DNA of 64,000 bases, from the NCBI RefSeq assembly GCF_003991155.1, contig NZ_CP031293.1. One strand, given 5' to 3'. Below, in pieces: positions 60,001-64,000 of this stretch (positions are counted from its first letter, which is position 1; each line of letters opens with the position of its first letter). Position numbers: made by a program. This DNA comes from Escherichia coli (GTDB lineage: Bacteria; Pseudomonadota; Gammaproteobacteria; Enterobacterales; Enterobacteriaceae).

Positions 60001-63000
60001 GCATTGCTTGAAAAAGATATTGCCAGTGATAAGGAGGTTATTGCTGCCTGTAGTAATGGTAATGCGAGTAGTTCAGCGTGTGCCAGCGCAAGACTGAAAG
60101 TTATTGCGTCGAAAGAAGGGTACGAAGATGGCCCTTATAACTCGAAATACAGCCAGCAATACGCTGATGCGTATGGTCAGATAGTCAATCTCCTCGATAT
60201 CACCAGTGTTGATGCACAGAATCAGCAGCAGGTGAAAAACGCCATGATTAACTATTTCATGGTCACCAAAGGGGTGGATCGTCAGACCGCAGAAAGCTAC
60301 ACCGAAACAACGCAGGGCTTGGAGATCATTGCGGCTTCGGTAACGCCTCTTATAGGGCAAGCTGCATCAAATAAATTAAGCTACCTTGGTATTGGGAAAA
60401 AGATATCCTTTGATGGTGATTTTTATACTGTAGATGGAATGAAATTCAGCAAAAGTTATTATGAGAAATTATGGGAGCAAGGCAGACCTGCGCCATTCGT
60501 GCAAGCAAGAGAAGTGTTGAATAGCAATCCAAAAATTGAGCCGGATCCTAGAGGCGCACCTGGCTACTTAAGATATGAAGGTGCAGGTCTTGAAATGATC
60601 TATAACCCGAAAACGGGACAAGTTGGTCATATTCAACCAGTCAAGGTTAAATAAAAAGAGGAAGTAAATGGATATTTGGCCTGAATTTCAACGAGATCTT
60701 GAGATGTATCGAGATGTTGTTTTATCAATAAAACGTAACCTTCGGTTGTATGAGGAGTGTATTGAATCGTTAGTTCATCAGATCGGAAGCACCAATTTTG
60801 ATAATGCGCAGCCTCTATTTGATGACCTCTTTCGTATGCAATCTGAACTTGCTACTATGTTATACAAATATGAATATAAGCCAGGAAAAAGGATACAAGA
60901 TTTAATATATCATCTGGACAGGGATGATTTTTACTCAAGAAAATATTGGCATAAAAAATTCAGTGATGGATTGGCATGGCCTGAATAATAGAAGTAGAAA
61001 TCCCGCCCTCAGTTAGCGCTGAGGAATCCCTAGTAATGGGCGGGTAAAAAAGACAGGCATAGAGTTTTGTGATCTACTGATTTGTGCAACCAATTCAATG
61101 AGATCGCTTCTATGCCTGCTCGACAAGTATGTCAGAATTTTTTCCACGATGCGTTAGCACCGTTTCACAAATACCGACAAAATGCTTTGCTGGATGCCAC
61201 CATCGCTCTCATCAATGGCGCATCACTGACGTTGACCAGCATCGGGCGTTATTTACCCGGCTTGGCTCGGGTCAAAAATAAAATCAAACGCGTTGACCGA
61301 CTGCTCGGTAATGAATCTCTTCACCGCGATATCCCACTGATTTTCAATAATATTATTGCCATGCTGACTAGCCAGCTATCTCTTTGTGTCATCGCCGTTG
61401 ACTGGAGTGGATATTCATCTCAGGAGCATCATGTGCTCCGCGCCAGCCTGCTCTGCGATGGATGCTCGCTTCCCCTGTTAAGCTGGGTAGTCCCGTCAGA
61501 AAAACAGCAGAACTCGCAGATACAAAAAAACTTCCCAGATGCCCTTGCCGAGGCTGTAAACCCTGTGGCCAGAGTCATAATAGTTACCGATGCGGGTGTT
61601 CTTACCCCCTTATTTCCAGACAGGGGCTGTATCTTAAGTTAACATTACCCGCTGACGTCGATATTCTCGCGGAGAGCGATAACCCAACGCACTATGCGGA
61701 TGGTTTTCATTGTAATGCTCGATCGCCACTGCAAGGTTTATATTGCCTGTTCATCGATCATCAATCTCGTGAACTGTGAGACGAAACAGCGTACACTGTT
61801 TGAACGTATCTACTTTTCCCAATACTGGGCGAAGGGAGATGTTATTGCGAAGCGCGCTCCAATTAGTCAGTGGGAACCTTATTCGGAAGAGTCACTGCTT
61901 GTCATCATCGTCACCAGCGTCTGTCGTATTAAAGTCGCGATGCTAAAACCTGAACCTCCCAGAGATCCCCATATCCCGCTAATGGGGGATTTTAACTAAA
62001 ACTTAGCGCTATCGCTGCATATTGTAACTATCCCGCATCACGTATGCATAAATTATGACGCCATACGGGGAACAAATACACAGAGGAAGAAAAAGATTAG
62101 ATTGGTTTTAAGGGATTTTTTATCATAAATGGCGCTGCTAAAATTATGAGATTATCGAAGATAAAATTCTTGATCATACATAAAAGGCCTCCTGAATTAA
62201 ATCAAGAGGCGTATAGTTTTTATATTACTGATGTATGTTTAATGATCTCACTGATTTTCACTTTCCTGTCCTGCGATCTTGAAAGAGTGGCAGCATCAGC
62301 AGTAGCAATCGCCGACATGGCCGCCTCACCATTGAGAAGGTCAATATAATCTTCTTCAGGTTTTGCACCACTGAGGATATTATGGAGGAATAACGTCTCC
62401 TTTCTTATTAAACTGGCAAGCCATAATGGTGTTTTTTTTCCAGGATGACCATATGCTATAGCGCCATCCATTTCTGAGGTCATATTGCCTTTCCGACGAT
62501 CATCATCTTCTTCTTGTGTTTCATGGACCAAAAAATGCTTTGTCTGACCGCCAATCCTAAGTGACCCTGCTGTTTCTTGCATATCAATTTTAATAGAGCC
62601 TTTAGTTCCATTGATGATGACATAATGTTCTGGCCAGTTAAATGCACTCCCCCACTCTAAGGTTGCTAGTTTTCCTGACGGGAATTCCAAGGTCATAAAT
62701 AACATATCATCTTCATTGCCAAACCCTAGACCAGAATGAGCTAAATTTCCACCAATCATAGTAACCGTCTCTGGTATTTCTCCAAGTAAATGCTGAACAC
62801 AATCTAACTCATGTATATGATGATATAGATGTCCACCAGATTGTTCTTTCATCTTTTTCCAGGAAAGTCTCTCCTGTTTGTTTTCCCAGCCATTTCTCTT
62901 GGTATGACATGATAATATTTCGCCGATAACACCTTCTTTAATTAACTTCCGTGCATATTGAACTCCATTGAAAAAATTCATAATATGCCCAGCCATAAAG

Positions 63001-64000
63001 GTCACACCAGCTTCTTTACACGCTTTGACCATATCCACACAATCTTCATAACTTAATGCAATTGGTTTTTCACAAAAAACATGCTTCTTATTCTTTGCTG
63101 CTTTAATTACTGGATCTTTATGCAGATAATTTGGGGTGGCTACGATCACACAATCGACTAATTTACTTGAAACTAAAGCATCCAAGCTTGACATATTGAT
63201 ACATTGCAATTCACGGGCAATAGTTTCTCCATTTTCAGGATCGTATACACATGTAATTTTTGCATTATCATGCATATTCATAAAACGAGCTAATTCAGCG
63301 CCAAAGTATCCAACACCAACAACGCCATAATTAATCATAAAGCCTCCAATTATTTAGCCACGGATAGTTTATAAATTTTACCTGGAATATCAAAACCAAC
63401 TAACAAAATTAATAAGGCAGAGAATGCAACCGTAACAATGAATAATGAAACACCTAAGCCATAATATCTAGAAATGTATGTAGCTAATACAGGTGCGGCC
63501 ATTCCTCCAGTTGCCCCTAAGTTATAAATAAGACCGGTCCCTAATCCTCTTAATTTTGTTGGAAAGTAATCATATATAAATTTTGGAACCAACCCTGCAA
63601 TACCTAAATTTGTAAACATTAATCCAAAGAGACATAATCCTATAAGAAAAGAGTTTTTCACAGAAATAAAAAAAAGAGGACAAAGGAAAATAAATGAAGT
63701 TATTAGACCAACTACAAATGTTTTTTTTACACCAATCTTATCACCAACAAAACCAAAAAATATTGTACCTGTCAGTGTACCTAAACCTGCTATTGTCATC
63801 AGAGTTGAAATAACCACTGTATTAACTCCATTATCTGCTAGGTAGGAAGGAAGTAGTCCGTTTATCGGCCAGTTTGCACCAAATAGACAAAAACAGACGA
63901 GGAAAACGATCATAGAGATTGAAAGATGTGGTTTTCTGAAGACAGACAAAAATGTTGATTTATCCTTATATTTATCTTCAATCCACTCCTGACTTTCTGG

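What the first reader, a model, noticed from the sequence alone, without database searches (positions are those of the whole stretch)
62220..64000. AT-rich oxidoreductase and MFS transporter pair at the window edge
Composition is distinctly lower in GC than the flanking cdi genes, indicating separately acquired cargo. The MFS gene runs off the window, so the cluster is incomplete here.
Basis: seen in the sequence. Interest (0 to 1): 0.2.

Follow-up and report, generated by a model that had tools for sequence, protein, structure and literature searches.

The report
Known E. coli nanXY sialic-acid operon
The AT-rich gene pair at the window edge is the already characterised E. coli nanX-nanY operon, which imports dehydrated sialic acids released from gut mucus and converts them to ordinary sialic acid; here it sits on a small IS-bounded module next to a contact-dependent-inhibition toxin locus, which is ordinary.

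Summary
A complete 372-aa Gfo/Idh/MocA oxidoreductase gene lies at 62220-63338 on the minus strand. The last 216 codons of an MFS transporter gene lie at 63350-64000, also on the minus strand, and the gene runs off the window. Together they are 36.4% GC, against 55.4% for cdiA and 48.5% for the window.

The pair is not unknown cargo. It is nanX-nanY (yjhB-yjhC) of E. coli:
- NanY matches K-12 YjhC (PDB 6O15) at 367 of 372 residues and keeps every catalytic residue.
- The NanX part matches K-12 at 213 of 216 residues.
- RefSeq names both genes in 100%-identical genomes.

Published work shows that NanX imports 2,7-anhydro-Neu5Ac and Neu5Ac2en, and that NanY converts them to Neu5Ac using NAD+ that is regenerated in the reaction. 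NanR represses the operon and H-NS binds its promoter.

"Separately acquired" holds up. The same module of about 4 kb, with AT-rich nanXY at its core, lies near leuX in K-12. It is present in only 21% of complete E. coli genomes. Here IS remnants bound it between cdiBAI and orphan cdiA-CT/cdiI modules, an arrangement seen in about 66 genomes.

Verdict: already known, low interest.

The parts
62220..63338 (-). nanY (yjhC), complete CDS of 372 aa: NAD+-dependent 2,7-anhydro-N-acetylneuraminate hydratase of the Gfo/Idh/MocA fold
   Evidence: ORF. Pfam GFO_IDH_MocA plus C-terminal domain. PDB 6O15 'YjhC', E 4.9e-255, and RgNanOx 6Z3B/6Z3C, E about 1e-159. 367/372 residues identical to K-12 NanY. 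GVGYFG at 8-13, EKP at 90-92, SWKK at 159-162 and HHIH at 173-176 are present. RefSeq names it nanY in 100%-identical genomes.
63350..64000 (-). nanX (yjhB), 3' part only: codons 190-405 plus the stop. MFS H+ symporter for 2,7-anhydro-Neu5Ac and Neu5Ac2en. The 5' 189 codons, the promoter and the NanR operator lie beyond the window end.
   Evidence: Pfam MFS_1. NCBIfam PRK12307 at profile positions 193-413 of 426. 213/216 identical to K-12 NanX residues 190-405. The full 405-aa gene is present in the extension L001 13351-14568 and is 400/405 identical to K-12.
63339..63349 (-). 11-nt nanX-nanY spacer with the Shine-Dalgarno sequence GGAGG (63347-63343), 4 nt upstream of the nanY ATG. This is an operon junction.
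   Evidence: Sequence read directly. Identical in K-12 apart from the nanX stop codon, TAA versus TGA.
62177..62210 (-). Intrinsic-terminator-like hairpin (GCCTCTTGATTTAATTCAGGAGGC followed by CTTTTATGTA), 9 nt downstream of the nanY stop codon
   Evidence: Terminator scan: 9 pairs, 5 of them G-C, on the minus strand. Conserved base for base in K-12.
62054..62178 (-). ythA, a small ORF downstream of nanY, frameshifted here (1-bp deletion relative to K-12). Part of the shared module.
   Evidence: RefSeq annotates 'ythA, frameshifted' in ECONIH2. The alignment shows GATAAAAA-ATCCC against K-12 GATAAAAACATCCC. Translations contain stops.
61751..61999 (+). yjhD-like ORF ('surface-adhesin E family'; full ORF 61694-61999). 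Similarity to the K-12 nanXY module ends at about 61751, which is the left boundary of the module.
   Evidence: K-12-type genomes match the query only from position 1092, which is window 61751. The pairwise alignment loses identity at the same point. Annotation.
61082..61738 (.). IS remnants separating the module from cdiI: an IS4-family transposase N-terminal fragment (+, 61082-61642) and an IS3-family integrase-core fragment (-, 61634-61738)
   Evidence: NCBIfam transpos_IS4_2 at positions 1-127 of 340, E 2.6e-34. RefSeq pseudogene annotations. ISEc48-like hits.

Best explanation
The region is the distal part of the E. coli nanXY (yjhBC) operon, transcribed right to left in the window.

Mechanism, established in K-12 and in Ruminococcus gnavus:
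- NanX, a 12-helix MFS symporter related to NanT, imports 2,7-anhydro-Neu5Ac and 2-deoxy-2,3-didehydro-Neu5Ac. Other microbes' sialidases release these compounds from mucus.
- NanY binds NAD+ and oxidises C4 of the sugar.
- It then eliminates and re-adds water across C2-C3, through a 4-keto-DANA intermediate.
- It reduces C4 again, which yields Neu5Ac and regenerates NAD+.
- Neu5Ac enters the NanA pathway and also relieves NanR repression.

Regulation: transcription starts beyond the window. A (GGTATA)3 NanR operator lies about 410 bp upstream of nanX. H-NS binds the yjhB promoter in K-12.

What is shown here: the sequence identity, the intact genes and motifs, and the conserved operator in an identical-sequence genome.

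What is inferred: function in this strain, from 98.7-99% protein identity to the characterised K-12 proteins.

Genomic setting: the operon rides on a module of about 4 kb, from an IS66-like transposase remnant through the operator, nanX, nanY and ythA to yjhD. IS-mediated rearrangement has placed the module between cdiBAI and orphan cdiA-CT/cdiI modules in a minority lineage.
For: Identity:
- RefSeq names the genes nanY and nanX in genomes that match at 100%.
- PDB 6O15 (YjhC) matches at E 4.9e-255 and RgNanOx at about 1e-159.
- NanY is 367/372 identical to K-12 and the NanX part 213/216.
- The DNA is 98.5% identical to K-12. Of the codons that differ, 18 are synonymous and 8 are not.

Catalytic residues: RgNanOx Lys93, Lys163 and His175/176/178 (PMC7535918) correspond to NanY K91, K161 and H173/H174/H176, all present.

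Operon signals: an 11-nt spacer with GGAGG and a terminator hairpin after nanY.

Regulation: the operator GGTATAACAGGTATAAAGGTATA is present once in the extension L001, at 14979-15001, with 0 expected by chance. It is identical to the K-12 operator. (GGTATA)3 is the NanR site (PMC8012715).

Function in K-12: yjhB and yjhC are both required for growth on 2,7-AN and 2,3-EN, and the operon is under NanR control (PMC7315737; PMC7535918).

H-NS and colonisation: H-NS binds the yjhB promoter and a yjhB mutant is defective in mouse gut colonisation (PMC9546599).

Module and context.
Against: - Nothing here tests activity in this strain.
- Five NanY substitutions (N39T, E75D, P204L, C323S, M372I) and three in the visible part of NanX are untested, although none falls on a named catalytic residue.
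- The 5' half of nanX, the promoter and the operator are outside the window. They were read from ECONIH2, which is identical over 62000-64000 but has 31 mismatches within cdiA. The window's own upstream sequence is therefore inferred.
- NCBIfam has no NanY-specific model. The best hit there, the iolG equivalog at 120 bits, is far below its 355-bit cutoff.
Confidence: 0.96

Rival explanations
1. A generic sugar dehydrogenase, such as an inositol or xylose dehydrogenase, paired with an MFS sugar transporter of unknown substrate. This is the level at which the first reader left it.
For: The Pfam hits are only to the broad GFO_IDH_MocA and MFS_1 families. The NCBIfam top hit for the oxidoreductase is the inositol 2-dehydrogenase equivalog iolG, E 8e-35.
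Against: The iolG score of 120 bits is far below its 355-bit cutoff. The protein is 98.7% identical to YjhC, whose substrates were determined biochemically and genetically. It carries the HHxH motif in place of the usual DxxxH motif of the family.
Confidence: 0.02
2. The pair is a decaying remnant. It would be non-functional in this lineage because it was stranded among IS fragments and pseudogenes inside a toxin island.
For: The neighbours are degraded: ythA is frameshifted, IS4, IS3 and transposase fragments flank the pair, and the orphan cdiA-CT genes are frameshifted.
Against: Both ORFs are intact and full length. The catalytic residues, Shine-Dalgarno sequence, terminator and NanR operator are all conserved. 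Relative to K-12, 18 of the 26 differing codons are synonymous, which is compatible with continued constraint, though the counts are small.
Confidence: 0.03
3. nanXY is functional cargo of the cdi locus. It would be co-mobilised and co-selected with cdiBAI and the orphan toxin/immunity modules, rather than lying next to them by chance.
For: It lies between cdiI and the orphan cdiA-CT/cdiI array. The arrangement is conserved at 99% identity or more in 57-66 genomes.
Against: About 1076 of the 1142 nanXY-positive genomes share the sequence only from window position 61751 onward and do not have this cdiI junction; the one examined in full, K-12, has the module beside leuX. The three flanking IS remnants belong to different families, so the unit is not a composite transposon. 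The 57-66 genomes are near-identical and could be a single clone. No paper in the library links cdiA with yjhBC.
Confidence: 0.05

Closest known systems
E. coli K-12 NanY / YjhC (b4280; PDB 6O15), 2,7-anhydro-N-acetylneuraminate hydratase
   Same: Same length of 372 aa and 367 identical residues. Same Rossmann GxGxxG, EKP lysine, second lysine and HHxH motif. Same position directly after nanX, with the same spacer and terminator.
   Different: Five substitutions (N39T, E75D, P204L, C323S, M372I). The chromosomal context differs: next to a cdi locus here, next to leuX in the KpLE2 region in K-12.
E. coli K-12 NanX / YjhB (b4279), MFS anhydro-sialic acid transporter of sialic acid transporter family ST1
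   Same: 213/216 identical over the part in the window, and 400/405 over the full gene in an identical-sequence genome. Same (GGTATA)3 NanR operator upstream.
   Different: Only codons 190-405 are inside the window. K-12 carries an IS4 (insG) insertion, with an ATCTTGGTTCTG target duplication, a little upstream of the operator. That insertion is absent here.
Ruminococcus gnavus RgNanOx (PDB 6Z3B/6Z3C)
   Same: Homologous over the full length (E about 1e-159), with the same catalytic residues and the same reaction through 4-keto-DANA.
   Different: A clearly diverged Firmicute orthologue: many substitutions along the printed alignment, against 5 for K-12 YjhC. It is partnered with an ABC (SAT2) transporter rather than an MFS transporter (PMC7535918).
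NanT, the E. coli Neu5Ac/H+ symporter
   Same: Same MFS sialate:H+ symporter subfamily. NCBIfam PRK03893 and TIGR00891 hit the NanX part, but below their cutoffs.
   Different: About 35% identity. NanT has 14 helices and NanX 12. NanT carries Neu5Ac and not 2,7-anhydro-Neu5Ac, while NanX does the reverse (PMC7535918; PMC8461474).

Membership tests
NanY / NanOx (anhydro-sialic acid oxidoreductase-hydratase) | Close sequence relationship to a biochemically characterised member (YjhC, RgNanOx) | tested here: met
   98.7% identity to K-12 YjhC. E 4.9e-255 to 6O15 and about 1e-159 to 6Z3B/6Z3C, each over the full length.
NanY / NanOx (anhydro-sialic acid oxidoreductase-hydratase) | Gfo/Idh/MocA two-domain fold with an N-terminal Rossmann NAD-binding GxGxxG | tested here: met
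   Pfam PF01408 at residues 2-118 and PF02894 at 130-362. GVGYFG at residues 8-13.
NanY / NanOx (anhydro-sialic acid oxidoreductase-hydratase) | Catalytic set: the EKP lysine, a second lysine, and an HHxH motif replacing the usual DxxxH (RgNanOx K93, K163, H175, H176, H178) | tested here: met
   K91 (EKP at 90-92), K161 (SWKK at 159-162) and H173/H174/H176 (HHIH at 173-176) are present. Residue roles come from PMC7535918.
NanY / NanOx (anhydro-sialic acid oxidoreductase-hydratase) | Genetic linkage to a sialic acid transporter | tested here: met
   nanX ends 11 nt upstream on the same strand. Linkage of NanX to NanY/NanOx is reported as general in PMC8461474.
NanY / NanOx (anhydro-sialic acid oxidoreductase-hydratase) | NAD+-dependent interconversion of 2,7-anhydro-Neu5Ac and Neu5Ac with no net redox change | not testable with these tools
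   Shown for the K-12 protein (PMC7315737, PMC7535918). Needs an enzyme assay for this allele.
NanX (ST1 MFS anhydro-sialic acid transporter) | MFS fold and near-identity to characterised YjhB | tested here: met
   MFS_1. PRK12307 at E 2.5e-109, with the score below cutoff only because half of the protein is missing. 213/216 identical in the window and 400/405 over the full length in L001.
NanX (ST1 MFS anhydro-sialic acid transporter) | Complete 12-helix transporter of 405 aa | tested here: inconclusive
   The window holds only residues 190-405. The gene is complete in ECONIH2, which is identical over 62000-64000, but the window's own continuation was not seen.
NanR sialoregulon operon | (GGTATA)3 operator in the promoter region | tested here: inconclusive
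   Absent from the window itself. Present at the expected place, L001 14979-15001, in the identical-sequence genome and identical to K-12. The operator is defined in PMC8012715.
myo-inositol 2-dehydrogenase (IolG), considered and rejected | Score at or above the TIGR04380 equivalog cutoff of 355 bits | tested here: not met
   120.3 bits.

The most novel reading that the evidence does not exclude
In one E. coli lineage (about 60 of 5426 complete genomes), the nanXY nutrient-scavenging module has been captured between a cdiBAI locus and its orphan toxin/immunity array. The block might then move or be selected as one 'gut competition' unit that combines contact-dependent killing with access to a sialic acid form freed by other microbes. 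The evidence does not exclude this. It fits equally well with a single chance IS-mediated rearrangement inherited clonally.
Probability: 0.05. Interest if true: 0.3.

Novelty: already known. Interest (0 to 1): 0.07.

Why it matters
It matters little as a discovery. nanXY has been characterised genetically, biochemically and structurally since 2020, and RefSeq already names both genes in identical genomes.

The result is useful mainly for annotation. The "oxidoreductase plus MFS" pair should be labelled nanY and nanX (partial). Its substrate class is 2,7-anhydro-Neu5Ac and Neu5Ac2en, and its regulators are NanR and H-NS.

There is one minor point of comparative interest. This accessory module is present in 21% of complete E. 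coli genomes and occupies at least two chromosomal contexts. The same internal boundaries and IS scars appear in both, which documents its mobility.

Tried and rejected
- Rfam scan of 60000-64000 at gathering threshold: no RNA family.
- tRNA scan of the whole window for an island-anchoring tRNA such as pheV or leuX: none found.
- Promoter consensus scan inside the window: 12 sites against 10.7 expected, so uninformative. The scan of the extension upstream of nanX found no convincing minus-strand promoter, so the promoter position rests on the literature.
- Search of the window for a NanR operator: none. It lies beyond the edge.
- Composite-transposon idea: rejected, because the flanking remnants belong to different IS families (an IS4 fragment, an IS3 fragment and a separate transposase fragment).
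- IolG or a generic dehydrogenase: rejected on NCBIfam cutoffs and on near-identity to YjhC.
- Literature search for a described link between cdiA and yjhBC: no relevant paper.
- Loci fetched by accession (L002, L003) were not available to the Python sandbox. The K-12 comparisons were therefore done with DNA alignment and protein comparison.
- The large protein-database searches, structure prediction and metagenome scans were deliberately not used, because identity was settled without them.
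Full report
**Observation**

The ORF table shows a complete 372-aa ORF at 62220..63338 on the minus strand. Eleven nucleotides upstream on the same strand is a reading frame at 63350..64000. 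It ends in a stop at 63350-63352 and stays open to the last base of the window. The 199-aa TTG-start ORF listed at 63350..63949 is only the part that the ORF listing can report for a gene running off the edge.

Pfam assigns the first protein to GFO_IDH_MocA (residues 2-118, E 3.8e-33) plus its C-terminal domain (130-362, E 1.5e-56). It assigns the second to MFS_1. NCBIfam places the second on positions 193-413 of the 426-position model PRK12307, so it is the C-terminal half of a transporter.

Composition:

| Region | GC | GC3 |
|---|---|---|
| 62220-64000 | 36.4% | – |
| nanY | 38.2% | 0.295 |
| nanX part | 33.3% | 0.217 |
| cdiA | 55.4% | 0.588 |
| cdiB | 57.4% | – |
| whole window | 48.5% | – |

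The cdi sequence nearest the pair is also AT-rich (cdiA-CT 43.4%, the cdiI-like ORF at 60668-60988 34.9%). The contrast is therefore with the conserved body of cdiA, not with all the cdi genes.

**Identity**

A megablast of 62000-64000 against 5,426 complete E. coli genomes finds the segment in 1,142 of them, always on the chromosome. More than twenty match at 100%, and RefSeq annotates them as [quoted passage not shown].

- Against the PDB, the oxidoreductase matches 6O15 ("Uncharacterized oxidoreductase YjhC", E. coli) at E 4.9e-255. It matches the Ruminococcus gnavus NanOx structures 6Z3B/6Z3C at about 1e-159, in both cases end to end.
- Against K-12 MG1655, NanY is 367/372 identical, with N39T, E75D, P204L, C323S and M372I.
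- The visible part of NanX is 213/216 identical to K-12 residues 190-405.
- At the DNA level, 62180-64000 is 98.5% identical to K-12. Of the differing codons, 18 are synonymous and 8 are not. K-12 has the same low GC, 37.2%.

**Anatomy and signals**

- The nanX stop (63352-63350) is followed by TT, GGAGG (63347-63343), CTTT and the nanY ATG (63338-63336), a typical operon junction.
- Nine nucleotides after the nanY stop there is a 9-bp-stem hairpin with a T-rich tail on the minus strand (62210-62187). It is conserved base for base in K-12.
- NanY keeps the Rossmann GVGYFG (8-13), the EKP lysine K91, K161, and HHIH at 173-176. These correspond to RgNanOx K93, K163 and H175/H176/H178. Bell et al. 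named these as the catalytic and candidate proton-transfer residues from the structure and targeted the active site by mutagenesis. They note that YjhC shares the unusual HxxH in place of the family's DxxxH (PMC7535918).

**Extension beyond the window**

Strain ECONIH2 (NZ_CP014667.1, locus L001) is identical to the window over 62000-64000. Over 50000-64000 it differs at 31 positions, all inside cdiA. A spot check at window 20000-20400 is also identical.

- In ECONIH2, nanX is a complete 405-codon gene (L001 13351-14568), 400/405 identical to K-12 NanX.
- The NanR operator GGTATAACAGGTATAAAGGTATA occurs once in L001, at 14979-15001. That corresponds to about 64978-65000 in window coordinates, roughly 410 bp upstream of the nanX start. 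None is expected by chance, and none occurs in the window itself.
- The operator and the whole leader are nearly identical to K-12.
- Three NanR dimers bind such (GGTATA)3 operators, and Neu5Ac weakens the binding (PMC8012715).

**How it works (established knowledge for the K-12 genes, inferred for this allele)**

- Two groups showed that YjhC converts 2,7-anhydro-Neu5Ac reversibly into Neu5Ac, and one of them that it converts 2-deoxy-2,3-didehydro-Neu5Ac irreversibly. NAD+ is regenerated in the reaction, which passes through 4-keto intermediates.
- The steps are oxidation at C4, elimination that opens the 2,7-anhydro bridge to give 4-keto-DANA, Michael addition of water at C2, and reduction at C4.
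- Growth on these compounds needs both yjhC and the MFS gene yjhB. NanT cannot substitute for yjhB. The operon is repressed by NanR (PMC7535918; PMC7315737).
- Choi and Groisman treat yjhB and yjhC as horizontally transferred genes. They show H-NS binding to the yjhB promoter in vivo and in vitro, and find a yjhB mutant defective in mouse gut colonisation (PMC9546599).

**Context and the "separately acquired" claim**

In K-12 the operon lies beside leuX in the KpLE2 region. The order there is leuX, intB', IS2, yjgX', yjgZ, IS4 (insG), nanX, nanY, ythA, yjhD', yjhE', IS911/IS30 and then fec.

Alignments show the extent of what is shared with the window:
- Downstream of nanY, similarity runs through ythA and yjhD and stops at window position about 61751. 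This is confirmed, where K-12-type genomes match the query only from position 1092.
- Upstream of nanX, it runs through the operator, across the site where K-12 carries IS4 (target duplication ATCTTGGTTCTG), and on into a transposase-fragment remnant that is yjgZ in K-12.

The unit is therefore about 4 kb. Here it is bordered on one side by an IS3-family fragment (61634-61738) and an IS4-family fragment (61082-61642; NCBIfam transpos_IS4_2 positions 1-127 of 340), followed by the cdiI-like ORF and cdiA. On the other side, beyond the window, it is bordered by frameshifted orphan VENN/cdiA-CT fragments with their immunity-like ORFs, then pgtP and pgtCBA.

- The cdiI-IS-yjhD-nanY junction is found in 66 of 5,426 genomes.
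- The orphan array is found in 57.
- 59 genomes carry nanXY at 99% identity or more, and 1,081 carry an allele in the 95-99% band, the band in which the K-12 copy falls.

Separate acquisition is thus supported by location, patchy distribution and IS scars as well as by composition. The flanking remnants belong to different IS families, so this is not a composite transposon. A single IS-mediated rearrangement inherited by one lineage is the simplest account. No paper in the library links cdiA with yjhBC.

**Rivals**

- A generic inositol or sugar dehydrogenase is excluded. The iolG equivalog scores 120 bits against a 355-bit cutoff, and the protein is nearly identical to YjhC.
- A decaying remnant is unlikely. 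Both genes, their signals and the operator are intact, and most codon differences from K-12 are synonymous.
- Functional coupling to the cdi system cannot be excluded but has no positive support.

**Verdict**

The finding is real and correctly described, and it is fully explained by a known, characterised operon. Novelty: already known. Interest: low (0.07). The Rfam and tRNA scans added nothing.

Noticed in passing
window 60668-60988 (+): A 106-aa ORF lies immediately after cdiA, in the position of the immunity gene cdiI. It is 34.9% GC and has no Pfam or NCBIfam family. RefSeq calls it hypothetical, while the cdiA beside it is named a 'contact-dependent inhibition effector tRNA nuclease'.
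   Followed up: partly
L001 15765-19113 (window-equivalent about 65764-69112, beyond the window end): Two frameshifted orphan VENN-motif cdiA-CT fragments, each followed by a small ORF (DUF596; hypothetical), lie on the far side of nanXY in the same orientation as cdiA. The nanXY module therefore splits the cdiBAI locus from its orphan toxin/immunity array. The full array is present in 57 genomes.
   Followed up: partly
window 62054-62178 (-): ythA, a 41-codon gene of unknown function in K-12, is frameshifted here by a 1-bp deletion (GATAAAAA-ATCCC against K-12 GATAAAAACATCCC).
   Followed up: yes
L003 8091-9516 compared with L001 about 15090-15110: K-12's IS4 (insG) is inserted a little upstream of the nanXY NanR operator, with an ATCTTGGTTCTG target duplication. 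The window-type genome has the uninterrupted ancestral sequence at that point. Whether IS4 changes nanXY expression in K-12 was not examined.
   Followed up: partly
window about 3600-9000: This is the most AT-rich stretch of the window, with a minimum of 28.6% GC in a 1781-bp window starting at 7101. It corresponds to the serotype-specific middle of a kps capsule cluster (CatB-like O-acetyltransferase, a large hypothetical protein, galE) in the near-identical ECONIH2 genome.
   Followed up: no
window 50907 and 56433-58869: All 31 differences between the window and ECONIH2 over 50000-64000 fall inside cdiA, and 30 of them cluster in 56433-58869. This looks like a recombination patch in the repeat region rather than scattered point mutation.
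   Followed up: no
window 1-50000: By the ECONIH2 annotation, the rest of the window is a mosaic island. It holds gspK/L and yghD, the kps capsule genes, a CP4-like block (Ag43, antirestriction, YeeU/CbtA toxin-antitoxin, YfjI), fucose/ribose and PTS sugar genes, then cdiB. ARAGORN finds no tRNA gene in the window.
   Followed up: partly
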